Assembly: GCA_965215265.1 (NCBI GenBank)
Contig: OZ244048.1
Location: forward strand, 1,664,001 to 1,728,000
DNA length: 64,000 bases
Direction of reading: 5' to 3'
Origin: Candidatus Poribacteria bacterium
GTDB taxonomy: Bacteria > Poribacteria > WGA-4E > WGA-3G
Below, one piece after another: positions 260 through 30,480 of this stretch. The notes under the pieces were generated by a model. It searched no databases and was not told the DNA's origin. It saw only the letters and a program-made list of their open reading frames with translations. The position numbers and the translations under genes are program-made. Within the stretch, counting starts at the first letter, position 1, and every line of letters begins with the position of its first letter.

Positions 260-292
260 CAGATAAGCCTCCTTTCTGAAAACCAAATCGAA

Positions 293-314
293 TCCGAGCT
301 GCACGCAGATCAGA
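293..314. repeat. Degenerate palindrome just downstream of the FGE-domain gene (DGR-type hairpin candidate)
   Basis: TCCGAGCTGCACGCAGATCAGA differs at 3 positions from the perfect palindrome at 26197-26220 and has a similar position after the stop codon. Confidence 0.7.
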
Positions 315-326
315 AGAGGTAAAGAT

Positions 327-2860
327 TTAAGGCGTTACAGCCCGCGCACACCGGAACCCGATGTAGGTGGTCGCGTCCGTAGGGGGCCTCATGAGGCGAT
401 CGGCGACACGCAGGTTTTGGGCAATGTGGGGCCAACCCCCGCCACGCAACACGCGAGTGGACTTAACACTTGTAAAATCATTTACAATCAGATCCAGATT
501 CGATATGGTGTTCACGTCACTCAGCGGATTCCGAGACGGCGAACTAAAATAGAAATCCGAATCATACGCATCAAGACACCACTCCCACACGTTCCCGGCC
601 ATATCATACAGCCCATACCCGTTCGCCGCATAACTCCCTACAGGACGGGTGTCCCCTACATTCTGACCGTAGTTCGCCCGCGCAGAGGAGATTGTATTCC
701 CCCACGGATACTTTAACCCTGATTTCCCACCCCGCGCTGCTTTCTCCCACTCCGCCTCCGTTGGAAGACGCTTACCTGCCCACGCAGAATATGCTATCGC
801 CGCATACCACGACACATACCTCACAGGATGGTCCCCCTTACCCACTGGATAGTTATTACCTTCCCAACGTCTTAGGTACTTACCATTGTGGAAGGCATCC
901 GGAATACGCCCCTTCTGCCACTCGGGATTCGCAAGCACGAAACGTTGATACTGCGCGTTCGTCACTTCATACTGGTCCATGTAGAACGCATCCACATACA
1001 CCGTATGCACAGGCTGCTCGTCAGCATCGGCATCGGCATCTTTGCTGCCCATCTGGAAGGCGCCTGCGGGGATGAGCACCATCCCTTCGGGGGCCGCCGG
1101 TGCGGTAGTGCGGGTGGCTGGCGGCGGGATTGGGGGCGTATTACCGGCCGTTCGCCGTCTCGGAAATGAAGGCGTTACAGCCCTCGCGCACCGGAACCCG
1201 GCGTCGTTGAACGCGTACGTTGGTGTATTCCTGAGGCGATCGGCGACACGCAGGTAGCGAGTATCATCGTCCCAACTCCCGCCACGCAACACGCGATAAT
1301 GCTTAACATGTGTAAATCCATCTACAATCTCATCCAGATTCGCGAGCATACTGCCAGACACACCACTCAGCGGATTACTAGACGGAGACTCTGAATAGAA
1401 AGCCGCATCATACGCATCAAGACACCACTCCCACACGTTGCCGGCCATGTCATACAGCCCATACCCGTTCGCAGCATAACTCCCCACAGCCGTTGTACCG
1501 CCTACATTACTAACGTAGTTCGCATGCGCAGAGGAGATTGTATTCCCCCACGGATACTTTAACCCTGATCGTCCACCGCGTGCCGCTTTCTCCCACTCCG
1601 CCTCCGTTGGAAGACGCTTACCTACCCACGCCGCATACGCCATCGCACCATACCACGATACATACGTCACAGGATGGTTCGCCTTACCCGAAGGATAGTT
1701 ATTACCTTCCCAGTGATCTAGGTAGGAACCATCGTGGAGATCGGCCGAAATACGCCCCTTTTGCCACTGCGGGTTCGCAAGCACAAACCGCTTGTATTCC
1801 AAATTCGTCACCTCGTGCATGTCCATGTAGAACGCGTCCACATGCACCGTCCGCACAAGCTGCTCGTCAGCATCGGCATCGGCATCTTTGCTGCCCATCT
1901 GGAAGTCGCCTGCGGGGATGAGCACCATCCCTTCGGGGGCCGACGGTGCGGTAGTGCGGGTGGCCGGCGGCGGGATTGGGCGCGTATTACCGGCCGTTCG
2001 CCGTTCCGGAAATGAAGGCGTTACAGCCCTCGCACACCGGAACCCGAAGTTGCTGAACGCGGACGTCGGGGGTGAATCCCCGCGGCGAAAAGCGGCACGC
2101 AGGAGCCGTGCAGGACCGTTCCAACTCCCGCCACGCAACACGCGAAGTGACCTAACATGTGTATAGTCATTTACAATCTCATCCAGATTCGATATGGTGT
2201 TCACGTCGCTCAGCGGATTACGAGCCGGCGAATTAAAATAGAAATCCGAATCATAAGCGTCCAGACACCACTCCCACACGTTCCCTGCCATGTCATATAG
2301 CCCATACCCGTTCGCAGCATAACTCCCCACAGCCGTTGTATAGTTTACATTCCTATCGTAGTTCGCATCGTTCGGCGTTATCGTGTCTCCCCGCGGGTAT
2401 TTCTTACCAACTAACCCACCGCGCGCCGCTTTTTCCCACTCCGCCTCCGTCGGTAGACGCTTACCTGTCCATGCCGCATACGCCATCGCACCATACCACG
2501 ACACATTTACCACCGGATGGTTCGCCTTACCTGCTGGATAGTTATTACCATTCCAATGTTTTAGGTAATTACCATTGTGGAGCGTGCGGGGGATGCGCGT
2601 CTTTTGCCATTGGGGGTTCGCCAGCACAAACCGCTTGTATTCCAGATTCGTCACCTCGTGCGTGTCCATGTAGAACGCGTCCACATGCACCGTGTGCACA
2701 GGCTGCTCGTTATTACCGGCATCGGCAGCCTCACTGCCCATCCGGAATGTGCCACCGGGGATGAGCACCATACCTTCGGGGGCCGCCGGTGCGGTAGTGC
2801 GGGTGGCCGGCGGCGGGATTGGGCGCGTATTACCGGCCGTTCGCCGTTTCGGAAATGAAT
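327..2860 (-). repeat. Three tandem ~845-bp intragenic domain duplications
   Basis: The near-identical linker SFP.RRTAGNT.PIPPPATRTTAP.APEGMVLIP and the FGE cores recur, with unit boundaries near 1170, 2016 and 2860. Confidence 0.9.
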
Positions 2861-3746
2861 ACGCGTAAGGCTTCTGGGTTGTCTGACCTATTTTATTCAG
2901 TTTCCGCTGGTTAGATGAAAGGAACGTTGTCTCATTGAAAAGTTTTTGTGTTTTCTGTTGCGTCAGTGCAAAGACCTCGCGCCACGACAGGAATCTATCA
3001 GAATCTCTATCTGCCTCCGCAGTGAAACTATCGAGCAGTGACACAGTGAAATACCCACCGATATCGTCATTTCCCCAGGCGTATTCACCAGCCGACGCAG
3101 CCGTGATGTCCAGAAAACCGCGATGTTCTAAAAACAGATTTTTGGTGTACCGCCGCTCTCTTGACTGAACTCTGGCGTAACGGCGTGCAATCGTTGGTGG
3201 TGCTTGAACCCGATTACTACACGTGTCCGTAATCAGCAGCTTTAACCGGCCTGCTTTGTCCTTCAACACGTTACGAATTCCATCCCGGGAGACAAAATCG
3301 TTCGTGACTTCCGGGTCAAAGTTGAGAATGTGGGTGCCAAAAGCATCCATACTTCCGTGTCCACTATAGTAGATGAGAACTGTATCATCATCGTTCGGAT
3401 GCAACTCTCGGAGCCATTGACCCACCTGTTTCGCTTTGATAATCCCCTGCTTTTCTTCCTGAATGCCGCGTGAATCGGTGTTGGACAGCGTGAACTCCTT
3501 GACCATTCCGTCGATTTCGGTTTCCGATTTCATCAGAGTCACGTGCACCTCACAGTCTTCGGACACCTGCCTCAGCAAGGTTTGCATCTTACTCTCATTT
3601 TTCTCGACGCTCGTCCGGATATCTGCATCGTTTCCCAGGATTACCAGCAGCGCGTGCACCTTTTGTGCATCGGCTGAGGGGGCGGCAACAAGAAAGGAAA
3701 CCAAGACGAAGAACCCTATAGCGTGGACAACTTGTTTTGCAATCAT
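327..3746 (-). CDS. Secreted caspase-like (peptidase C14) domain protein with three tandem FGE-sulfatase/C-type-lectin-fold domains; probable DGR target
   Basis: N-terminal signal peptide; YYSGHG and ITDTCS match the His/Cys caspase dyad; three ~280-aa repeats with F.MGS, RLPTEAEWEKAARGG, NGYGLYDMAGNVWEW and RVLRGGSW...GFRCAR. Confidence 0.9.
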   Translation of the reverse strand: MIAKQVVHAIGFFVLVSFLVAAPSADAQKVHALLVILGNDADIRTSVEKNESKMQTLLRQVSEDCEVHVTLMKSETEIDGMVKEFTLSNTDSRGIQEEKQGIIKAKQVGQWLRELHPNDDDTVLIYYSGHGSMDAFGTHILNFDPEVTNDFVSRDGIRNVLKDKAGRLKLLITDTCSNRVQAPPTIARRYARVQSRERRYTKNLFLEHRGFLDITAASAGEYAWGNDDIGGYFTVSLLDSFTAEADRDSDRFLSWREVFALTQQKTQKLFNETTFLSSNQRKLNKIGQTTQKPYAYSFPKRRTAGNTRPIPPPATRTTAPAAPEGMVLIPGGTFRMGSEAADAGNNEQPVHTVHVDAFYMDTHEVTNLEYKRFVLANPQWQKTRIPRTLHNGNYLKHWNGNNYPAGKANHPVVNVSWYGAMAYAAWTGKRLPTEAEWEKAARGGLVGKKYPRGDTITPNDANYDRNVNYTTAVGSYAANGYGLYDMAGNVWEWCLDAYDSDFYFNSPARNPLSDVNTISNLDEIVNDYTHVRSLRVLRGGSWNGPARLLRAAFRRGDSPPTSAFSNFGFRCARAVTPSFPERRTAGNTRPIPPPATRTTAPSAPEGMVLIPAGDFQMGSKDADADADEQLVRTVHVDAFYMDMHEVTNLEYKRFVLANPQWQKGRISADLHDGSYLDHWEGNNYPSGKANHPVTYVSWYGAMAYAAWVGKRLPTEAEWEKAARGGRSGLKYPWGNTISSAHANYVSNVGGTTAVGSYAANGYGLYDMAGNVWEWCLDAYDAAFYSESPSSNPLSGVSGSMLANLDEIVDGFTHVKHYRVLRGGSWDDDTRYLRVADRLRNTPTYAFNDAGFRCARAVTPSFPRRRTAGNTPPIPPPATRTTAPAAPEGMVLIPAGAFQMGSKDADADADEQPVHTVYVDAFYMDQYEVTNAQYQRFVLANPEWQKGRIPDAFHNGKYLRRWEGNNYPVGKGDHPVRYVSWYAAIAYSAWAGKRLPTEAEWEKAARGGKSGLKYPWGNTISSARANYGQNVGDTRPVGSYAANGYGLYDMAGNVWEWCLDAYDSDFYFSSPSRNPLSDVNTISNLDLIVNDFTSVKSTRVLRGGGWPHIAQNLRVADRLMRPPTDATTYIGFRCARAVTP

Positions 3747-21810: not shown

Positions 21811-22488
21811 AAAAAAGAATACTTACAACTTCTTGCGACTGTGAGGGAATACGTGGAAGAACAACTTGAACTCGGTTTCATGGAGCTACAGGAGCCTAAA
21901 CAGGAATCTCCTTACGCTAACTTCGACCTGATCCAGTTAGATGCAGATGCTCAAAACTGCACCCGATGCGTTTTGCACGAAAGCCGAAACAGCGTCGTTT
22001 TCGGATTTGGAAATCCTAATGCTTCGCTGATGTTTGTCGGAGAAGCACCTGGGGCGGATGAAGACCGGCAAGGCGAACCTTTTGTCGGACGCGCCGGGCA
22101 ACTGCTGACCCGAATTATTGAGGCGATGAAGTTTACACGTGACAATGTTTACATCGCTAACGTGCTAAAATGCCGTCCACCGGGAAACAGAAATCCAGGC
22201 CCGGATGAGATTGAAATGTGTCGTCCATATTTGGAACGGCAGATAGAATTGATTCACCCCAAAGTGATTGTCGCACTCGGGAGTTTTGCAGCGAAGTTGT
22301 TAATTAATACGACTACAGGTATTTCAGCACTTCGCGGACAGTTTCATACGTACTCGAAAGCCGGAAAGCAGGAGAATGCACCACGCATCATGCCTACCTA
22401 TCATCCTGCATATCTGCTCCGGAATCCTAGTGCAAAACGCGACGTGTGGGACGATATGAAAAAGGTCTTAGATTTCTTAGAAAAATGA
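21799..22488 (+). CDS. Uracil-DNA glycosylase family 4
   Basis: Cxx[34 protein letters not shown]. Confidence 0.93.
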
Positions 22489-24965
22489 GTTACGCCAACG
22501 TCGCTTTCCCGCTCGCCATCAATCAGCAGTTTACGTACGCCGTACCGTCGTATCTAGATGCAATAGTGCAACCCGGTGTCCGGGTACTGGCTCCCTTTCG
22601 GCGAAGTATTCAGGAAGGGGTTGTTGTTGAAAGGCTTGATGAAACTGAGCTTGCACCCAACAGAATCAAGCATATTTCCGATTGTCTGGATGAGGTACCG
22701 ATGTTCTCTACTGAGATGCTGACGCTCACAAAATGGATGGCTGACTACTACGTCTCTTCGTGGGGTAATGCACTTTTTTGTGCTGTACCTACCGCTATCC
22801 GCAGTCAGAAACAGCAGCGCGTGAAACTCCAACCGGAGCCTCCGGTGCCGAGGGGAAAAGTGCAAAAGGAAATTGTTGCACTTTTGGAAGCAGAAGGGGA
22901 GCTGTCGCCCAACCAACTCGCGAGGCGTGTCGGTGTCAGCTACTCGGATCTACGCCCCAAAATTTCTGCCCTACGTGAAAACGGGGTTGTGGATATTTAT
23001 GTCACGCACAAACCAAAAGCCACGGCACAAGTCACGACTGTTGCAACATTAGCGCTGCCTGCATCGGAAGTCGAGACAGAGATCGTTGAACTGAAAGATG
23101 CAGAAAACCGCCGGCGTGGTGCCTCCGCCAAACATGCTGAAATTCTGCAAATCTTACTTGACGAGAATGTTCCGTTAGCCACAACAGAACTCACAAAACG
23201 CGTCGGGGCTGGTGTTTCTCTGCTTCGAACGCTTGAAAGACGTGGATTCATCCGGATTACACGCGTCCCCTCGGTGCGGAACCCGCTGAGCTGCCAACCC
23301 GTGGCACCCACACAAGCGTATCCGTTAAATTCCGAACAGGCTGCAGCATTTACCGAAATCCAGAACGCACTCTCAACAAATATTTCTGCCTCTCAAAAGC
23401 CCCCGATTTTGCTGCTTCACGGCGTGACTGGCAGCGGCAAAACCGAGGTGTACATGCAGTCAATGGCACCGATACTGAAAACCGGTAAATCGGTTATCGT
23501 ATTGGTACCAGAAATTTCATTAACACCGCAAACGGCTTCGCGGTTTATCGGGCGTTTCGGCGACCGGGTTGCTGTGTTACACAGCCGATTGAGCAATGGT
23601 GAACGCTATGATGGGTGGCACCGCATTCAAAAAGGCGAAGCGACTATTGTTATCGGACCCCGCTCAGCAGTGTTTGCCCCGGTTAAGGAACTCGGCTTGT
23701 TAGTTATAGATGAAGAGCACTCGGATTCCTATAAATCGGATACTGCACCGAGATACCATGCGCGGGAAGTTGCACAGAAACGGAGTGAGCTTGCAAACTG
23801 CGCGCTGCTGTTGGGTAGTGCCACCCCTTCCATTGAGAGTTTTCATCGTGCAAAGAATGGGACCTACAACTTACTCAGCTTGCCCTCCCGGGTATTAAAT
23901 AGAGCAATGCCGGCCGTTCATATCGTTGATATGCGCGCCGAATTGAAGCAGGGCAATCGCACTATCTTCTCCGATGCACTCCGAAACGGCATCGTAGAAC
24001 GGCTTGTAAAACGGGAGCAAATTATCCTTTTTCTCAATAGACGGGGGCATTCAACTTATGTGTTTTGTCGAACTTGCGGTTATGTAGAGCGGTGCAACAG
24101 TTGCTCTATTTCGTTGACGTTCCACTTTGAAACCAAAAAACTGGTTTGCCATCATTGCGGACATAAACGGAATACACATTCTACATGTCCACAGTGTAGC
24201 AGTCCTGCCATCCGTTATTTTGGACTCGGCACAGAAGCTATAGAACAAGAGGTCAGAAAATCGTTTCCGGGGGCAAACGTCAAGCGCTTTGATGCAGATT
24301 CTACAGCGCGGAAGAACGCACATCAACAGATATTAGAAGCATTTCAGCAGCAGCAGCTTGACATTTTAATTGGTACTCAGATGGTAGCAAAGGGGTTAGA
24401 TTTCCCCAATGTCACACTTGTCGGAGTCATCGCCGCAGATACTGCCTTAAATTTGCCTGATTTCCGGGCAGGTGAGCAGACCTTTAGCCTGCTGACACAA
24501 GTCGCCGGGCGCTCCGGACGGGCGGATATACCAGGGGAGGTTATCTTTCAAACCTATATGCCCGAACACTACTGCATTGCAGCAGCACAAAAGCATGACT
24601 ATCTCGAGTTTTATGAGAAAGAGGTGGAGGCACGCAACGCGCTGCGTTACCCCCCCTTTTCGCAGGTGGCAAGACTGCTGTTGCGTGGCCCGGATGAGCC
24701 AGCGGTTATTGAAGCCGCCCATGCCCTACACACGAAACTCCAACTTTGGCTAACTGACGAAGTTCTCGACATCGATATTCTCGGACCTGCACCTGCTCCG
24801 CTCTCAAAAATTGAAGGGAAATTTCGGTGGCATTTTTTGCTTCGAAGTGAAGCGGACGGAAAAATTAGTCAACTCCTTCACCACATCACGAACGACCCTA
24901 TACCTTCTATTAAATCCAACGCTATTGAACTCATTATAGACATAAATCCAACGCATACTTTGTAG
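22485..24965 (+). CDS. priA: Primosomal protein N' helicase
   Basis: HGVTGSGKTEVY, DEEH, the CxxC zinc-finger series, GTQMVAKGLDFP, QVAGRSGR. Confidence 0.97.
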   Translation: MSYANVAFPLAINQQFTYAVPSYLDAIVQPGVRVLAPFRRSIQEGVVVERLDETELAPNRIKHISDCLDEVPMFSTEMLTLTKWMADYYVSSWGNALFCAVPTAIRSQKQQRVKLQPEPPVPRGKVQKEIVALLEAEGELSPNQLARRVGVSYSDLRPKISALRENGVVDIYVTHKPKATAQVTTVATLALPASEVETEIVELKDAENRRRGASAKHAEILQILLDENVPLATTELTKRVGAGVSLLRTLERRGFIRITRVPSVRNPLSCQPVAPTQAYPLNSEQAAAFTEIQNALSTNISASQKPPILLLHGVTGSGKTEVYMQSMAPILKTGKSVIVLVPEISLTPQTASRFIGRFGDRVAVLHSRLSNGERYDGWHRIQKGEATIVIGPRSAVFAPVKELGLLVIDEEHSDSYKSDTAPRYHAREVAQKRSELANCALLLGSATPSIESFHRAKNGTYNLLSLPSRVLNRAMPAVHIVDMRAELKQGNRTIFSDALRNGIVERLVKREQIILFLNRRGHSTYVFCRTCGYVERCNSCSISLTFHFETKKLVCHHCGHKRNTHSTCPQCSSPAIRYFGLGTEAIEQEVRKSFPGANVKRFDADSTARKNAHQQILEAFQQQQLDILIGTQMVAKGLDFPNVTLVGVIAADTALNLPDFRAGEQTFSLLTQVAGRSGRADIPGEVIFQTYMPEHYCIAAAQKHDYLEFYEKEVEARNALRYPPFSQVARLLLRGPDEPAVIEAAHALHTKLQLWLTDEVLDIDILGPAPAPLSKIEGKFRWHFLLRSEADGKISQLLHHITNDPIPSIKSNAIELIIDINPTHTL

Positions 24966-25022
24966 CATAGAGACTTGTCTCGCACTTTCTTATTGCATAA
25001 AACCTATTGAAAGGAATCATAG

Positions 25023-25976
25023 ATGGGCACCCGGATATTTGACAAACTTAATGACACAACACAACTTGCACGAAGCCCAATTCTCGTTTTCGCTGCCGAC
25101 CCGCTGGCATCCGCTGGTATTAAAGGATTGGGACAGGTTCAACATCCTAAACCGCACTACCGGACGCATGCAGAGTTTTTGCAGCTACAACGTGACCTGG
25201 TTGCAGATGGACAATTGGATGGGCTGCTGATGACACCGGCTGATGCTGAAACGCTGGCCCTTGAAGAAAACCTGTTTGAAGATACACATATCACGCCAAT
25301 TGTTCGGATGAATTCGGAGACAGCTATCTGGAATCCGCGTTTTGGTGTATATACCGCGCGCCCGTCAATGCCCTTTCAAACGGTTTTTCCGGAAGACATG
25401 CAGCGGTATTGTGAAGCACTCATCGGCCCTGCTTTGGAATGCCGGGTTAACCTCGGCCTGTATTCTATTACACTCAACAACGACCCGATTGTTGATGAGC
25501 GGATGCTGCAGGCGTATATCCAATTCGCGCATGTTGTCGGTGAAATTGAGGGGTTTGACCATCTACTAGAGGTTTTTCTACCTAATGTTAAATTGCCGGG
25601 GATGGATGAAGAGAAACGTGGAATGTACGTTGCAGACTCTATCGTGCGAACGATGAGCTACCTACGGAAACATCAACGCCCACGCTTTATCAAAACCGCA
25701 TACACCACTGCTGAAGTATGGTGCGAGTTGTGTGAATTTGATAAAACCTTGGTGATTGGTGCCTTGGGCGGTCCGCGGCAAAACGCACGAAGCACGTTTG
25801 CCCTCGCACATAACGTCATCCAGAACGGCGGGCGCGCCATCTTATTCGGGCGTACCATTTTTGGTGAAGCAGCACCAGTCGGGTTCGTGCAATGCATCCG
25901 TCGCGTGCTTGACGGTGAGGCAGAGCCGCAGGCAGCGCACACCGAATATCAGAAAATGTTGCGGATGGGCCAGTAA
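25023..25976 (+). CDS. Putative class I aldolase-like TIM-barrel protein
   Basis: FAAD near the N-terminus, FIKTAY (Schiff-base Lys-like), GALGG, LFGRTIF. Confidence 0.55.
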   Translation: MGTRIFDKLNDTTQLARSPILVFAADPLASAGIKGLGQVQHPKPHYRTHAEFLQLQRDLVADGQLDGLLMTPADAETLALEENLFEDTHITPIVRMNSETAIWNPRFGVYTARPSMPFQTVFPEDMQRYCEALIGPALECRVNLGLYSITLNNDPIVDERMLQAYIQFAHVVGEIEGFDHLLEVFLPNVKLPGMDEEKRGMYVADSIVRTMSYLRKHQRPRFIKTAYTTAEVWCELCEFDKTLVIGALGGPRQNARSTFALAHNVIQNGGRAILFGRTIFGEAAPVGFVQCIRRVLDGEAEPQAAHTEYQKMLRMGQ

Positions 25977-26111
25977 CACAGTTTGCCTAAGTCTGCTACT
26001 CCCCACCCGCCCAACTTCCGATGATGGCTGAAGAACCCGTTTTTTTGCCCAAGCGTCTGTCATGTCCCGTGTTGCATGTCTATGTCAGCCCCCGCCCGTA
26101 TCCTAAAATCT

Positions 26112-26152
26112 GTTGGCAGGTTTGGCAGCCGGACCCTGCCAAACCTGCCAAC
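26112..26152. terminator. Perfect 17-bp inverted repeat between convergent genes
   Basis: GTTGGCAGGTTTGGCAG-N7-CTGCCAAACCTGCCAAC. Confidence 0.6.
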
Positions 26153-26196
26153 CAATTCTAACGCTTTTTTTAACTAATAGTAAAAAAATCGTAGAG

Positions 26197-26220
26197 GTCC
26201 GAGCTGCATGCAGCTCGGAC
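26197..26220. repeat. Perfect 24-bp palindrome downstream of the variable region (DGR-type hairpin/cruciform candidate)
   Basis: GTCCGAGCTGCATGCAGCTCGGAC, 19 bp after the TAA of the FGE gene. Confidence 0.75.
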
Positions 26221-26239
26221 GGGGTAAAGGGGTAAAGAT

Positions 26240-28213
26240 TTAAGGAGTAACAGCCCTCGCGCACCGGAACCCGACACCGCCGTACGTGAACGTCGGGGTA
26301 AGCCTGCTGCGACCGGCGACACGCAGTTTTCGTGTAGGACTGTTCCAACTACCGCCACGCAACACGCGAGAGGAAGAGATCATAGCGGTCATATAGCGAT
26401 TTACAATCTCAGCCACATTCACGAGCGTACTGCCAGACACACCACTCAGCGGATTCCGAGACGGAGACTCAGAATAGAAATCCGCATCATACGCATCAAG
26501 ACACCACTCGTAAACGTTGCCTGCCATATCATACAGCCCATACCCGTTCGCAGCATAACTCCCCACAGCCGTTGTATTGCCTACATTCCTACCGTGGTTG
26601 GCGTTATTAGGCGTTATCGTGTCCCCCCACGGGTATTTCTTACCAACTAACCCACCGCGTGCCGCTTTCTCCCACTCCGCCTCCGTTGGCAGACGCTTAC
26701 CTGCCCACACGGAATATGCCATCGCACCATACCACGACACATACCTCACGGGATGGTTCGCCTTACCCACTGGATAGTTATTACCTTCCCAAAGCATTAG
26801 GTACTTACCATTGTGGAAGGCATCCGGAATCTGCGTCTTCTGCCACTCGGGGTTCGCCAGCAGAAAACTTTTATACTCGGCGTTCGTCACTTCGTGCATA
26901 TCCATATAGAACGCGTCCACATACACCGTCCGCACAGGCTGCTCGTCACCATCGGCCTCGGCATCGTTGCTGCCCATCTGGAACTCGCCCGCGGGGATGA
27001 GTGCCATCCCTGCAGGCACCGATGTTGCACTCACACAACGAAACCCGGTGAAGCTTGCCGTGAACGTCGGCTCCCTCTTGAACCTATCGGCGACGCGCTG
27101 GTAACGCACATCAGCACGCCAATTACCACCCCGCAACACCCGCATTGACTTCACATTTACGCCAATGTAGTCCGATACAATCTCAGCCACATTCGCGAGC
27201 ATACTACCAGACACACCACACAGCGGATTCCGAGACGGAGACTTTTTATAAAATTTCTTATCCCACGCATCAAGACACCACTCGTGAACGTTCCCGGCCA
27301 TGTCGAACAGCCCATACCCGTTCGCAGCATAACTCCCCACAGAAGTCGTATCGTCTACATTCCTATCGTAGTTCGCATCGTTCGGCGTTATCATGTCTCC
27401 CCACGGATACTTCAGACCTGCCTCCCCACCGCGTGCCGCTTTCTCCCATTCCGCCTCCGTTGGCAGACGCTTCCCTGCCCACGCAGCATAAGCCATCGCC
27501 GCATGCCACGACACATACCTCACAGGATGGTCCCCCTTACCCACTGGATAGTTATTACCGTCCCAACGGTTTAGGTAAGAACCAAAGTGGAAGGCATCCG
27601 AAATACGCCCCTTCTGCCACTCGGGATTCGCCAGCACAAAAGTTTGATACTCAGCGTTCGTCACTTCGTGCGTATCCATATAGAACGCGTCCACATGCAC
27701 CGTATGCACAGGCTGCTCGTTATCCCGCGCATCAGCATCGTTGCTGCCCATCTGGAAGGTGCCGCCGGGGATGAGCACCATCCCTGCAGGCGCAGACGCG
27801 GGAGCCGCAGGCGCAGACGCGGGAGCCGCAGGCGCAGACGCTGCACCGTTAAACCCCGCCGCTACTAACACCACGTCTCCTATATCCACTACACTATTCC
27901 CGTTCATATCTGCCGAACTGTTACCGCGGGTTCCCAGGCGCGCCGCTACCAATGCCAAATCCACTATATCCACACGGCCATCACCATTCACATCCGCATC
28001 ACCTTTGACAGCCGAAAGCATGCCGACATCCGCAGGCAGGCTTACCCCTTGCGCACACACAGCGCCAACACTCCCTAAACTCAAAACTATACACGCCAAT
28101 ATTGCTAACATCACTGACACGCTGTTATTAGTCATTACAGTCCTCCAAACCTTTGACACTTTTTTAGCGGACATTACAGTCCTCCAAACCTTTGACACTT
28201 TTTTATTACACAT
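26240..28213 (-). CDS. Secreted dockerin-like/EF-hand + two FGE-sulfatase/C-type-lectin domains; probable DGR target
   Basis: Signal peptide; DVNGDGRVDIVDL and DMNGNSVVDIGD repeats; PAAPASA linker; two FGE domains, the last ending GFRCARAVTP*. Confidence 0.88.
   Translation of the reverse strand: MCNKKVSKVWRTVMSAKKVSKVWRTVMTNNSVSVMLAILACIVLSLGSVGAVCAQGVSLPADVGMLSAVKGDADVNGDGRVDIVDLALVAARLGTRGNSSADMNGNSVVDIGDVVLVAAGFNGAASAPAAPASAPAAPASAPAGMVLIPGGTFQMGSNDADARDNEQPVHTVHVDAFYMDTHEVTNAEYQTFVLANPEWQKGRISDAFHFGSYLNRWDGNNYPVGKGDHPVRYVSWHAAMAYAAWAGKRLPTEAEWEKAARGGEAGLKYPWGDMITPNDANYDRNVDDTTSVGSYAANGYGLFDMAGNVHEWCLDAWDKKFYKKSPSRNPLCGVSGSMLANVAEIVSDYIGVNVKSMRVLRGGNWRADVRYQRVADRFKREPTFTASFTGFRCVSATSVPAGMALIPAGEFQMGSNDAEADGDEQPVRTVYVDAFYMDMHEVTNAEYKSFLLANPEWQKTQIPDAFHNGKYLMLWEGNNYPVGKANHPVRYVSWYGAMAYSVWAGKRLPTEAEWEKAARGGLVGKKYPWGDTITPNNANHGRNVGNTTAVGSYAANGYGLYDMAGNVYEWCLDAYDADFYSESPSRNPLSGVSGSTLVNVAEIVNRYMTAMISSSRVLRGGSWNSPTRKLRVAGRSRLTPTFTYGGVGFRCARAVTP
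27786..27841 (-). repeat. 21-bp tandem repeat encoding an (ASAPAAP)n linker
   Basis: GCAGGCGCAGACGCGGGAGCC repeated about 2.7 times. Confidence 0.85.
28133..28204 (-). repeat. 39-bp-period tandem duplication containing RBS + ATG
   Basis: AAAAAAGTGTCAAAGGTTTGGAGGACTGTAATG twice on the minus strand. Confidence 0.85.
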
Positions 28214-28325
28214 TATATACCTCCAAATGCCGCGAAACACTCGCGGCTAAAAATACGAGGGGTTGGAGGCGAGACCGCCGCGTCAAACGCAGACGGCACA
28301 CACACCCTTACACCTCTCTCACGCT

Positions 28326-28934
28326 TTACTTCCTTATCAACATCTTCTGCGTGGCGGAGAAGTCGCCGGCACGCAGCGTATAGAAATAGATACCACTTGC
28401 AACACGCTCACCAGAGGCGTTGCGCCCGTCCCAATACGCGGCACGCGCCTTGCTCTCGTAACGGCCCGCCGCTTGATGTCCCAACGCTAACGTCCTAACC
28501 AAACGCCCGTCCAACGCATAGATGGACACCTCCACATCCGCTGGCACTGCCAGTTGATAAGGTATCCACGTCTCTGGGTTGAACGGATTCGGATAGTTCG
28601 CTAACAGCCGCGGCCGCTCCACAGGCTGCATCTCCCACAGCACCTGTTCAAGGTTCGCTATCCCCTTTGCAAAAACCGCGGAGCCGTCATTGTTGGCACG
28701 TAACAGCGACAACCACTCTGCAACCGTTTCAGGAGAAACCGAGTCAGCGGAGACGGCAGGCAAGCTACGTGCTATGCTTGTGAGCCCGTCAACCGGAGGC
28801 GCAACGCGCTGCGTCTCTGAGTGAACCGGCATCAAGCCGTATTGCGCTTTTACCAGTCCGTAGCAGGCAAACACTAACACCAGCCCGCCCAAGAAAATCA
28901 CGATGCCTTTTTTCGGGTTCTTCCAATCTTTCAT
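28326..28934 (-). CDS. Secreted protein with a C-terminal FlgD-Ig/T9SS-A-like domain
   Basis: N-terminal hydrophobic segment; LLANYPNPFNPETWIPYQL...YWDGRNASGERVASGIYFYTL. Confidence 0.8.
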   Translation of the reverse strand: MKDWKNPKKGIVIFLGGLVLVFACYGLVKAQYGLMPVHSETQRVAPPVDGLTSIARSLPAVSADSVSPETVAEWLSLLRANNDGSAVFAKGIANLEQVLWEMQPVERPRLLANYPNPFNPETWIPYQLAVPADVEVSIYALDGRLVRTLALGHQAAGRYESKARAAYWDGRNASGERVASGIYFYTLRAGDFSATQKMLIRK

Positions 28935-29200
28935 TTCAAAATATCCTTTCGGACGATGTGTCCGTTGTCGATGCGGTTATCGCACCGGTTAGGTTTATAA
29001 GTCGTTATCAGTTTGATTGCGGGTGGGCAGGCGTGCCGAAGCACGCTGTCCACGCACAAATAGGTGAATAGCCAATACGAGCCCACGGTAGGGTGCCGGG
29101 CGATTGTCGCCTCGGCGCCGTTGACATAAGCCGACTCGGCTTGTTAGCGCACCCGCACACAGAAGCCCGGGGCTCCGACAAGGGGTGCCGCACGCATCAG

Positions 29201-29251
29201 AAAAAAAGCCTGCAACGGCCTCCACCGTCCGAGACGGTAGGCGTGCAGGCG
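29201..29251 (-). terminator. Strong intrinsic terminator
   Basis: Minus strand reads GCCTGCA-CGCCT-ACCGTC-TCG-GACGGT-GGAGGCCGT-TGCAGGC-TTTTTTT. Confidence 0.7.
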
Positions 29252-29570
29252 TGAGAAAGCAGCGACTAAGGGTGATGCGGCTTGAGTTAATAAAATGGTT
29301 AACGTACGTAAATCTGGGGGGGGTCAATCGTCTTAACAGGCAGTTAAAACACACGACAGCACGGTATATGCACGCGTTCGCGCAAAGATGCCAACCCCGC
29401 AGCACAGGGCAGCTCACTCTGCTTATGGGATACACGGACTCTCGGTGTTTCATCTGTTTTATCTCTTTCAGCTCAAAACAGAGAGCGTCTCCGACGAGAT
29501 TTACATCGGATTTCAGATAACATAAACCCGTATAGTACCGAGATAGACAAAATTCTGATTCGAGTGAATG

Positions 29571-29800
29571 CATTTTAGCCGAAAACAACACTTTTTGGCA
29601 AACTTTTTTTTGCCTGACTCAAAAGTTGTTTTGCATTATCGCACAATGAACATTTTTTTGTCAACTCTTTTTTCCGAAATAAAAAAGAGACGAACACATT
29701 TTAGCCGAAAATCACACTTTTTGGCAAACTTTTTTTTGCATGACTCAAAAGTTGTTTTGCATTATCGCATAACGAACGTTTGTTTGTCAACTCTTTTTTT
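29571..29800 (-). repeat. 126-bp tandem duplication, each copy carrying a sigma70-like promoter
   Basis: Copies start at 29571 and 29697; minus strand TTGACA-N18-GATAAT with TG extension. Confidence 0.8.
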
Positions 29801-29998
29801 CAAATTTTTTCGTCTCTTTCAGCACGTCACCGACGGTTTTTTGGTCTCTTTCAGCGCTTAAGACAATGCAAAACAGAGATAGACTCTGGCGACATTTGGA
29901 CAAGGCTTATCAAAACATCAGACGACGGTGATGGACTCAAATAGACAAAAATCGGATTTCACATTACATAAACCCGTATAGTACCGAGATAGACAAGT

Positions 29999-30480
29999 TT
30001 ATCTTGCAGGCCCAATCAGCAGCACCGCGGCTGGCAGCGATGTCTTTTCCGAGTTTTCAAACGCTCTATTGATACTGCGCATGTCAGCATCAGTTGCCAA
30101 TATCTCATAAGGCAAACTCCACGCGTGCAACGTCGGCTCCAACAATGTCGCGACTGAATCAACCCACTGGCCATTTTCATCTCGATTATGATAGCCACGA
30201 TACCCGATGAAGACTACAACGGGTATCTGCATATTTATAACTGTGCCGCGGATAGCATCGCCGGATGCCAGAAAGCCTGTGTTCTGGATGATGATAACAG
30301 GTCGTTTGCCACCGACATACAACCCGGAGGCGATGGCGAATGCCTTACCGTGATGACTTCAATGTCTGATTCTACCCGGAGACATTCATAAATTTTCGCA
30401 CTGCCATTATCAGGAACGCCCACGGCATGTGTGATATTCCATTTTTTTATTTCAGCCACTATGTTTTGTGCTGATGCCAT
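29999..30480 (-). pseudogene. Frameshifted TPP-binding sulfopyruvate decarboxylase alpha (ComD-like) subunit
   Basis: N-half GVPD...EVITV and C-half AFAIASGLYVGGKRP..IQNTG are in different frames; the conserved (T)REGE segment is missing near 30346. Confidence 0.75.

What the first reader, a model, noticed from the sequence alone, without database searches (positions are those of the whole stretch)
26197..27142. Second, remote DGR-type target sharing the 3' end and hairpin: trans-acting multi-target diversification
Seen in sequence: this gene lies ~23 kb from the first and has a different N-terminus (dockerin-like), yet it ends with the same GGG TTC CGG TGC GCG AGG GCT GTN ACN CCT TAA ATCTTTACC. 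A perfect palindrome GTCCGAGCTGCATGCAGCTCGGAC follows; the first gene has a 3-mismatch copy at 293-314. The variable codons are TTC ACG TAC GGC GGT GTC (terminal domain) and TTC ACG GCA AGC TTC ACC (internal domain). Conservation of non-coding sequence past the stop fits an IMH plus hairpin/cruciform homing signal. No RT or TR lies in this 64 kb. Inference: a dispersed family of secreted targets is served in trans by one retroelement. This copy, with the intact hairpin, may be active, and the first may be decaying.
Basis: partly seen in the sequence, partly recalled or inferred. Interest (0 to 1): 0.85.

Follow-up and report, generated by a model that had tools for sequence, protein, structure and literature searches.

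The report
Relic remote target of a DGR
This gene is one of about two dozen scattered surface-protein genes whose tips were once rewritten by a single mutagenic retroelement lying 269 kb away, but this copy has stayed unchanged across related strains, so it is a relic of a known kind of system.

Summary
The gene (window 26240-28135, minus strand) ends with the same coding tail, stop, TTTACC repeats and hairpin as the first gene of the window. The palindrome at 26197-26220 is perfect.

The missing retroelement exists. The genome has one Avd-RT-TR cassette at 1,419,462-1,421,146, which is 269 kb from this gene. The genome also holds 39 VR-like segments. 23 of them are terminal and carry the stop and TTTACC repeats.

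This gene's VR differs from the TR at 19 of 35 adenines and at 8 of 78 other positions (p = 1e-6). It was therefore diversified by a DGR at some time.

It is not in step with the present TR, however. Only four VRs have no non-adenine mismatch: one cis and three remote.

This VR is also identical in contigs from three studies. It is identical in two other assemblies whose proteins differ at 35-41 of 589 upstream columns. A remote VR that is in step has only 13 of 29 residues identical to its nearest counterpart.

The internal domain's "variable codons" are frozen.

Verdict: this is a real DGR-type remote target that now looks like a relic of an older template state. It is a new member of a known kind. 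The interest is moderate and lies mainly in the large, staged target family.

The parts
26240..28135 (-). Target-type gene: signal peptide, dockerin-like domain and two FGE-sulfatase (C-type-lectin-fold) domains. The ORF is listed as 26240..28240; the likely start is the ATG at 28135 behind a GGAGG.
   Evidence: closest solved structures are formylglycine-generating enzymes (E 9e-40) and T. denticola variable protein 2y3c (E 1.6e-12)
26257..26369 (-). Terminal variable region (VR), 113 nt, homologous to the TR at genome 1,421,034-1,421,146.
   Evidence: 19 of 35 TR adenines mismatched against 8 of 78 other positions, Fisher p = 1.2e-6. Identical in runs X1, X3 and X7 and in proteins P0003 and P0122.
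26243..26272 (-). IMH-like end: GGGTTCCGGTGCGCGA (last part of the TR homology, one T>C against the TR) followed by GGGCTGTTACTCC, where the VR and the TR flank diverge.
   Evidence: the pattern is found 31 times in this genome
26240..26242 (-). Stop codon TAA.
26221..26239 (-). Two direct CTTTACCCC repeats between the stop and the hairpin. They are kept in other genera; their role is unknown.
   Evidence: alignment A1; relatives
26197..26220 (.). Perfect palindrome: a 10-bp stem and 4-nt loop (CATG), 36 nt after the end of the TR homology.
   Evidence: covariation (90.4% of cells paired, 4 of 10 pairs with changes on both sides, slid controls 37% or less)
27031..27143 (-). VR-like end of the internal FGE domain. 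It is a frozen lineage with no stop and no hairpin.
   Evidence: 24 adenine and 20 other mismatches to the TR; 3 adenine-site and 0 other differences to paralog 4443031
327..3746 (-). First gene of the window: a caspase-like domain and three FGE domains. VR-like segments lie at 344-456 (terminal), 1184-1296 and 2030-2145.
   Evidence: 21/10, 16/7 and 24/4 adenine/other mismatches
292..315 (.). Degenerate copy of the hairpin after the first gene.
   Evidence: -1.8 kcal/mol, z = +0.5

Best explanation
The gene encodes a secreted, dockerin-bearing binding protein. Its C-terminal C-type-lectin/FGE-fold domain carries the variable region of a diversity-generating retroelement.

The retroelement is a target-target-Avd-RT-TR cassette. 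It lies 269 kb away and is the only one in the genome.

Inferred from the known mechanism: the RT copies TR RNA into cDNA and misreads adenines. The cDNA then replaces a VR that is marked by the IMH-like end and a downstream DNA hairpin.

This VR was rewritten in that way in the past. The template then carried letters that the present TR no longer has, and two of these are still seen in the TRs of other genera.

Since then the TR has changed, or a second template was lost. Only four VRs have kept in step with it. This copy has stayed fixed through strain divergence.

It is therefore best read as a relic remote target. It now serves as a binding protein of fixed specificity, with its homing signals still largely intact.

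Shown here: the anatomy, the adenine bias, the mismatch to the TR and the invariance across strains. Inferred: the homing mechanism, the order of events and the protein's role.
For: Cassette:
- There is one RVT_1 match in the genome.
- The Avd gene matches PF22296 and NF033474 above their cut-offs.
- The TR has 35 A in 113 nt and about 12 AAY codons, as read.

Adenine signature:
- Across the 39 VR-like segments the mean minor-letter fraction is 0.53 at adenine columns and 0.10 elsewhere.
- This VR has 19 of 35 adenine mismatches against 8 of 78 others.

Terminal position matters:
- In three paralogous three-domain genes the middle VRs differ at 0 adenine sites (upstream identity 96-97%).
- The terminal VRs of the same genes differ at 23-26 of 35 adenine sites (upstream identity 92-94%).

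Out of step:
- Four VRs have 0 of 78 non-adenine mismatches although their upstream 300 nt are only 79-83% like the cis target.
- This VR has 8. Five of them are shared by about 14 VRs.
- Outgroup TRs carry two of those shared letters.

Static in populations:
- Contigs identical to the window span 26244-26451 in X1. Depth there is 46 against 53 in the flank, and the flank has 36 differences in 4229 bases.
- Contigs identical to the window span 26231-26451 in X3 and X7.
- The VR core is 26/26 identical in P0003 and P0122, with 548/589 and 554/589 upstream columns identical.
- Cis target 1, which belongs to the same lineage, is likewise 26/26 identical against P0147.
- The in-step remote VR 1795948 is 13/29 identical against P0002, with 174/200 upstream columns identical.

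Same pattern in another genus: in G004, 1 of 27 IMH-bearing segments, the one beside the RT, has 0 non-adenine mismatches. The other 26 have 3 or more.
Against: - The hairpin is perfect and stronger than that of the cis target (-11.4 against -7.7 kcal/mol). The IMH-like end differs from in-step copies by a single T>C. A dead target might be expected to have lost these signals, as the first gene has.
- Logan contigs drop rare variants. Low-frequency homing within a population is therefore not excluded.
- Invariance could reflect strong purifying selection on one allele rather than loss of competence.
- The positive control (P0002) is more diverged than P0003 and P0122, and it may be a paralog.
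- Two of the four in-step VRs are frameshifted and two carry an extra codon against the TR. It is therefore not proven that the present DGR is active at all.
- X3 may be the sample the genome came from, and X7 shows the same strain. X1, P0003 and P0122 are the informative comparisons, and their mutual independence is unknown.
Confidence: 0.75

Rival explanations
1. This is an active remote target. The present Avd-RT-TR cassette still rewrites this VR in trans, and the fixed allele seen is only the currently favoured one.
For: - The hairpin is perfect.
- The IMH-like end is almost the same as in in-step copies.
- Other remote VRs are in step with the TR at 375 kb to 3.4 Mb, so action in trans is plausible.
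- Contigs cannot show rare variants.
Against: - A homing event replaces the whole tract, so it would erase the 8 non-adenine differences. These lie throughout the VR, including one about 18 nt from its 3' end.
- No such event has been fixed in strains that differ by 0.85% in flanking DNA or by 6-7% in upstream protein columns.
Confidence: 0.14
2. The VR is served by a second template. A TR with the lineage-B letters lies on DNA missing from this one-contig assembly, or is present only in some cells, and it diversifies the roughly 14 lineage-B VRs.
For: Lineage-B VRs share five non-adenine letters yet differ from each other at 18-28 of 35 adenine positions. They were therefore written from a template that is not in this assembly.
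Against: - No second RT was found.
- No second adenine-rich TR-like sequence was found. All 39 other hits have 13 or more adenine mismatches.
- The VR is static across strains, as is the lineage-B VR of cis target 1.
- Outgroup TRs suggest that the B letters are an older state of the same TR.
Confidence: 0.06
3. The shared tail and palindrome are a generic terminator or REP-like repeat, and the sequence variety comes from ordinary paralog divergence without any retroelement.
For: - A T-run follows the hairpin 9 nt downstream in this copy.
- The family is large (58 FGE-domain matches).
Against: - The hairpin core occurs only at VR ends or their remnants, apart from 4 poor matches (22 of 26 hits).
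- The terminator scan does not call it.
- Many copies have no T-run.
- Variation falls on TR adenines (0.53 against 0.10).
- A matching TR sits beside an RT and an Avd gene.
Confidence: 0.02

Closest known systems
Treponema denticola DGR with TvpA and remote targets, including the leftover remote target of strain SP32 (PMC4891356 and PMC5758913, passages read; PDB 2y3c seen)
   Same: - A cellular DGR whose targets have an FGE-type C-type-lectin fold.
- Several target genes far from the RT. Seven non-adjacent targets is the largest number reported in PMC5758913.
- One remote VR fits a different TR type and is read as a leftover (21 changes, 19 at adenines, PMC4891356).
   Different: - The family here is larger: 23 terminal cassettes and 31 IMH-like sites.
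- Many proteins carry two or three FGE domains, with dockerin or caspase-like N-termini.
- The out-of-step copies form a shared lineage that seems to record an older state of the same TR.
- Sequence similarity of this domain to TvpA is weak (E 1.6e-12).
Bordetella phage BPP-1 DGR target signals: IMH plus hairpin/cruciform (PMC3240598, passages read)
   Same: - A GC-rich stem with a 4-nt loop lies just downstream of the VR.
- The stem is kept by structure and not by sequence. Here 4 of 10 pairs show compensatory changes.
- The TR flank differs from the VR flank just past the shared GC-rich end.
   Different: - The loop is CRYG here (CATG, CGTG), not the GRNA consensus.
- The hairpin lies 36 nt after the TR homology, against 4-34 bp in the paper.
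- Two conserved TTTACC repeats fill the spacer.
- The host is cellular, and the gene order is target-target-avd-RT-TR.
Thiohalocapsa PB-PSB1 DGRs acting in trans (PMC10907252, passages read)
   Same: [quoted passage not shown]
- One such target shows no diversity in populations.
- Duplication and mobile elements shape the loci.
   Different: - There are nine DGR loci and 15 targets there, against one cassette and dozens of VR-like segments here.
- The targets there are linked to NTPase conflict systems.
- The window's VR fails the non-adenine test.
Cyanobacterial cellular DGRs (RT relatives at 55-60% identity; PMC7517822 seen in a search listing only)
   Same: - They are the closest RT relatives outside the own group.
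- They are cellular, not phage-borne, which is the class in which targets more than 100 kb away are reported (PMC5758913).
   Different: - The host group differs. The nearest RT (83%, L050) and a named homolog bear the label Poribacteria.
- I did not examine the target families of the cyanobacterial loci.

Membership tests
DGR variable region (target) | A TR elsewhere that matches the VR, with differences concentrated at TR adenines | tested here: met
   19 of 35 adenines against 8 of 78 other positions, p = 1.2e-6
DGR variable region (target) | Only A-to-N differences to the TR, allowing minor exceptions. This is the criterion for assigning non-adjacent targets in PMC5758913. | tested here: not met
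   8 non-adenine mismatches spread along the VR. Four other VRs have none.
DGR variable region (target) | A DGR-type RT and accessory gene in the same genome | tested here: met
   - One RVT_1 gene.
- It falls below the cut-offs of the group II, retron and Drt models.
- The adjacent gene passes NF033474 (Avd) and PF22296.
- The IGNLTSQ and YVDD motifs are seen; their meaning is recalled.
DGR variable region (target) | An IMH at the VR end that differs from the TR's flank | tested here: met
   VR ...GGTGCGCGA|GGGCTGTTACTCC against TR ...GGTGTGCGA|AGACCCTTTCC. The function was not tested.
DGR variable region (target) | A downstream hairpin/cruciform with a 7-10 bp GC-rich stem and 4-nt loop (PMC3240598) | tested here: met
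   10-bp stem and 4-nt loop; covariation. The loop is not the GRNA consensus, and the spacing is 36 nt.
DGR variable region (target) | The VR varies among cells or strains | tested here: not met
   Identical in X1, X3 and X7 contigs and in P0003 and P0122. Rare variants were not testable.
Formylglycine-generating enzyme (catalytic FGE) | A pair of catalytic cysteines in the C-terminal segment (recalled) | tested here: not met
   Where the FGE 6muj has LCHDSYCNRY, the query has W---NSPTRKLR, which is the VR itself (alignment). PF03781 is matched as a fold.
Intrinsic transcription terminator | A GC-rich stem followed at once by a T-run | tested here: not met
   The scan does not call it. In this copy the T-run starts 9 nt after the stem, and many copies have none.

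The most novel reading that the evidence does not exclude
The template of a cellular DGR drifts over time and leaves behind cohorts of targets, each stamped with the template version that last rewrote it.

This genome, and a second genus with 27 such sites, would then hold a natural series of two dozen target cassettes, from in-step to decayed. From that series the rules of target competence could be read: IMH letters, hairpin type and terminal position.

The YhgA/Rpn-like nuclease genes found right behind 8 cassettes and the TR may be what copies the cassettes around the chromosome.

In the boldest form, the well-kept hairpin of out-of-step copies such as this one means that they remain competent and are re-enlisted when conditions change.
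Probability: 0.25. Interest if true: 0.6.

Novelty: new member of a known kind. Interest (0 to 1): 0.36.

Why it matters
Remote targets, IMH-plus-hairpin signals and leftover targets of DGRs are all in print, so the finding itself is not new biology. It matters in three smaller ways.

1. It shows that anatomy alone overcalls activity. A perfect hairpin and a shared tail did not predict an active target. The non-adenine letters and the strain comparisons decide the question.

2. The family is unusually large for one cassette: 23 terminal cassettes and 31 IMH-like sites. The largest number of non-adjacent targets in the 2017 survey (PMC5758913) is seven. The host group is also one for which I found no DGR description. 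Two papers in the library hold both terms and one was listed, on seep viruses. Supplementary tables of the surveys were not opened and may list such cases.

3. In-step, out-of-step and frozen internal copies sit side by side in one genome. This gives a ready-made comparison for what makes a DNA site a DGR target.

Tried and rejected
- Orthologs in other species. I looked for the gene's ortholog in 30 related species genomes. The flanking genes are there (82% identity in the same-genus genome G001), but the match stops at the end of the neighbouring gene. No cross-species VR comparison was therefore possible. G001 has neither the cassette nor any IMH-like site.

- Metagenome scan. A scan of metagenome contigs for the IMH-stop-motif pattern found nothing. 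I did not use the second scan.

- Run X8. The raw Hi-C reads gave no usable cover of the VR: 0 depth in the bin 26005-26271 and 98% of laid reads running on unlike. Within-sample rare variants were therefore not tested.

- Contigs skipping the VR core. Contigs in X1, X3 and X7 skip 26274-26345. I considered them as alternative alleles and rejected this. Their summed depth is about two or more single-copy equivalents, and the reference allele has near-full depth, so they fit paralogs.

- Terminator or REP reading. Rejected.

- Catalytic FGE reading. Rejected.

- Not run. I did not run structure prediction, complex prediction, the protein atlas or the representative-library search, because the family assignment was not in doubt.

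A protein comparison stands in for it and is weaker.

- Papers. Passages were read by 'find' in PMC5758913, PMC3240598, PMC10907252 and PMC4891356. PMC11661182, PMC7517822 and others were seen only in search listings. No supplementary file was asked for.

- Recalled, from no call: the TvpA structure paper, the DGR RT motif, the FGE catalytic cysteines and the recombination role of Rpn proteins.
Full report
**What is at the site**

Window 26240..28240 on the minus strand is an open frame of 666 aa. It holds a dockerin type I domain and two FGE-sulfatase domains (PF03781, E 8e-119). The likely start is the ATG at 28135. This ATG follows a GGAGG inside a 39-nt tandem repeat and opens a signal peptide.

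On the gene strand the frame ends ...GGGTTCCGGTGCGCGAGGGCTGTTACTCCTTAA. Two CTTTACCCC repeats follow, and then the perfect palindrome at 26197-26220.

The first gene of the window (327..3746, minus) has a caspase-like domain and three FGE domains. It ends in the same way, but its palindrome is degenerate.

**The missing retroelement**

The whole genome is one contig of 4.83 Mb, and the window is bases 1,664,001-1,728,000. It has a single RVT_1 match, at 1,420,096-1,420,737.

Around that match lie, in order:
- two FGE target genes (1,416,737-1,418,032 and 1,418,066-1,419,196);
- a 118-aa gene that passes the Avd models PF22296 and NF033474;
- the 354-aa RT;
- 90 nt further on, a 113-nt adenine-rich copy of the FGE domain's end, with 35 A and about 12 AAY codons by my reading.

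That last piece is the template repeat (TR). It lies 269 kb from the finding's VR.

**The family**

- The genome has 58 FGE-domain matches.
- Aligning every seed match to the TR gave 39 VR-like segments besides the TR itself.
- In 23 of them a stop falls 15 nt after the end of the TR homology, followed by the TTTACC repeats. The others are internal to multi-domain proteins or have lost that end.
- Two more sites keep only the last approximately 25 nt of a VR with the whole tail.
- Across the 39 segments the mean minor-letter fraction is 0.53 at TR-adenine columns and 0.10 elsewhere. This is the mark of adenine mutagenesis.

**The hairpin**

- A pattern for its core gave 26 hits. 20 lie at VR ends, 2 at the truncated ends, and 4 are poor matches elsewhere.
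- I aligned 22 copies from this genome and 4 from other genera. In that alignment 90.4% of cells pair and 4 of 10 pairs change on both sides. One pair is G-C in 10 rows and T-A in 10. Sliding the partners gives at most 37% paired.
- The terminator scan does not call it.
- It fits the hairpin/cruciform that BPP-1 needs for homing, a 7-10 bp GC-rich stem with a 4-nt loop (PMC3240598). The loop letters differ from that paper's consensus, and the spacer of 36 nt is just beyond its range.

**Is this VR served now?**

A homing event replaces the tract, so a VR in use should differ from the TR only at adenines.

- Four VRs meet this with 0 of 78 other positions changed: the cis target 2, and remote copies at genome 1795948, 4150258 and 4795218. 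Their upstream 300 nt are only 79-83% like the cis target. This is good evidence for homing in trans over 0.4-3.4 Mb.
- The finding's VR has 19 of 35 adenine mismatches and 8 of 78 others (p = 1.2e-6).
- Five of the 8 are shared by about 14 VRs. Among them are the first gene's copies and cis target 1, which has also lost its stop and hairpin.
- These lineage-B VRs differ from each other at 18-28 adenine sites. They were therefore diversified from a template with those letters.
- No such template is in the assembly.
- The TRs of two other genera carry two of the B letters. An older state of the same TR is thus the simplest source.

**An internal control for position**

Three paralogous three-domain genes were compared.

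| VR position | Adenine-site differences | Upstream identity |
|---|---|---|
| Middle | 0 | 96-97% |
| Terminal | 23-26 of 35 | 92-94% |

Only ends with the tail were rewritten after duplication. The internal VR-like segment of the finding's gene (27031-27143) belongs to a frozen lineage: 20 non-adenine mismatches to the TR, and 3 adenine-site and 0 other differences to a paralog.

**Population evidence**

Contigs of three studies were laid on window 22000-30000.

| Run | Flank against the window | Contig identical to the window |
|---|---|---|
| X1 | 36 differences in 4229 bases | 26244-26451, depth 46 against 53 in the flank |
| X3 | 0 differences in the 4246-base contig | 26231-26451 |
| X7 | 0 differences in the three flank contigs | 26231-26451 |

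Two other assemblies encode proteins P0003 and P0122. These match at 548/589 and 554/589 upstream columns, and their VR core is 26/26 identical. The lineage-B VR of cis target 1 is likewise 26/26 identical in P0147.

As a positive control I compared the in-step remote gene with its nearest counterpart P0002. The VR core is 13/29 identical, against 174/200 in the columns just upstream. This control is more diverged and may be a paralog.

**A second genus**

In G004, 27 sites bear the IMH-like pattern. Only the one beside the RT has no non-adenine mismatch to that genome's TR, and the other 26 have 3 or more. Large families of mostly out-of-step VR-like ends thus recur.

The pattern was found in 6 of 31 genomes searched, counting G000. 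It was not found in the same-genus genome G001 (95% complete).

**Comparison with what is known**

- Remote targets are documented: ten DGRs with 29 targets more than 100 kb away, and at most seven non-adjacent targets, in Treponema (PMC5758913).
- A leftover remote target of another TR type is described in T. denticola SP32 (PMC4891356).
- Trans action judged by non-adenine identity, and an in-step target without diversity, are described in Thiohalocapsa (PMC10907252).
- The RT's nearest relative outside this genome is 83% identical, in a record titled as an uncultured Poribacteria MAG. Cyanobacterial RTs follow at 55-60%.
- I found no paper on DGRs of that group in the library. Survey supplements were not opened.

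**Verdict**

It is wrong, on present evidence, about this copy being active.

What remains open:
- whether rare homing still occurs here;
- what template wrote lineage B;
- whether the present cassette is active at all. Two in-step VRs are frameshifted and two have an extra codon against the TR.

Noticed in passing
genome G000 (outside the window): e.g. 1,421,523; 1,264,848; 4,143,936; 4,795,682; 3,264,707; 3,731,454; 2,997,768; 4,392,948: 8 of 24 Transposase_31 (YhgA/Rpn-like) matches start within 600 nt downstream, on the same strand, of a VR, TR or truncated target end. About 0.06 would be expected by chance. Each is preceded by a ~120-nt promoter-like repeat that also follows the TR. These genes may be linked to the spread of the target cassettes.
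   Followed up: partly
genome G000 2,998,856(-) and 4,393,884(-): Two truncated target ends (the last ~25 nt of a VR, the IMH-like end, the stop, the TTTACC repeats and the hairpin) lie about 100 nt after PA14-like genes. The same filler sequence precedes both.
   Followed up: partly
genome G000 4,795,218(+), 4,150,258(-), 1,419,179(+), 1,795,948(+): Of the four VRs with no non-adenine mismatch, two are frameshifted inside the VR (+2 nt; -5 nt at four places). Two carry one extra codon in the AAC run against the TR. This could come from RT slippage, from real decay, or from consensus errors over a mixed population.
   Followed up: partly
genome G000 1,795,132(+) (L157): An internal VR with no stop or hairpin after it is almost in step with the TR (18 adenine mismatches, 1 other). 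This sits oddly with the rule that only terminal VRs are rewritten.
   Followed up: no
L012 about 3290-3320 (genome ~1,421,190-1,421,220); also L013, L014: A ~27-nt element (GGGTTGCCAGAGTTGGTGTGCCTCCGA) about 45 nt after the TR is kept in three genera. A stem-loop of varying sequence precedes it. It is probably part of the DGR RNA.
   Followed up: no
window 28125-28227: A 39-nt tandem repeat (2.6 copies) lies at the 5' end of the finding's gene. Each unit carries a GGAGG and an ATG, giving alternative in-frame starts.
   Followed up: partly
window 29571-29799: A 126-nt repeat (1.8 copies, 93% alike) lies in an intergenic stretch. Contigs of run X3 skip 93-94 nt at 29459-29554, just upstream of it. 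Depth is high over 28141-29742 in all runs, so this is repeated DNA.
   Followed up: no
window 327-3746 (-): The first gene joins a caspase-like Peptidase_C14 domain to three FGE/lectin-fold domains. Many database homologs share this build together with PF08308. It resembles the sensor-plus-protease proteins of conflict systems.
   Followed up: no
window 28326-28934 (-): The gene just upstream of the finding's gene encodes a 202-aa protein with a FlgD-Ig-like domain. It also has a weak, below-cut-off match to the type IX secretion C-terminal sorting domain.
   Followed up: no
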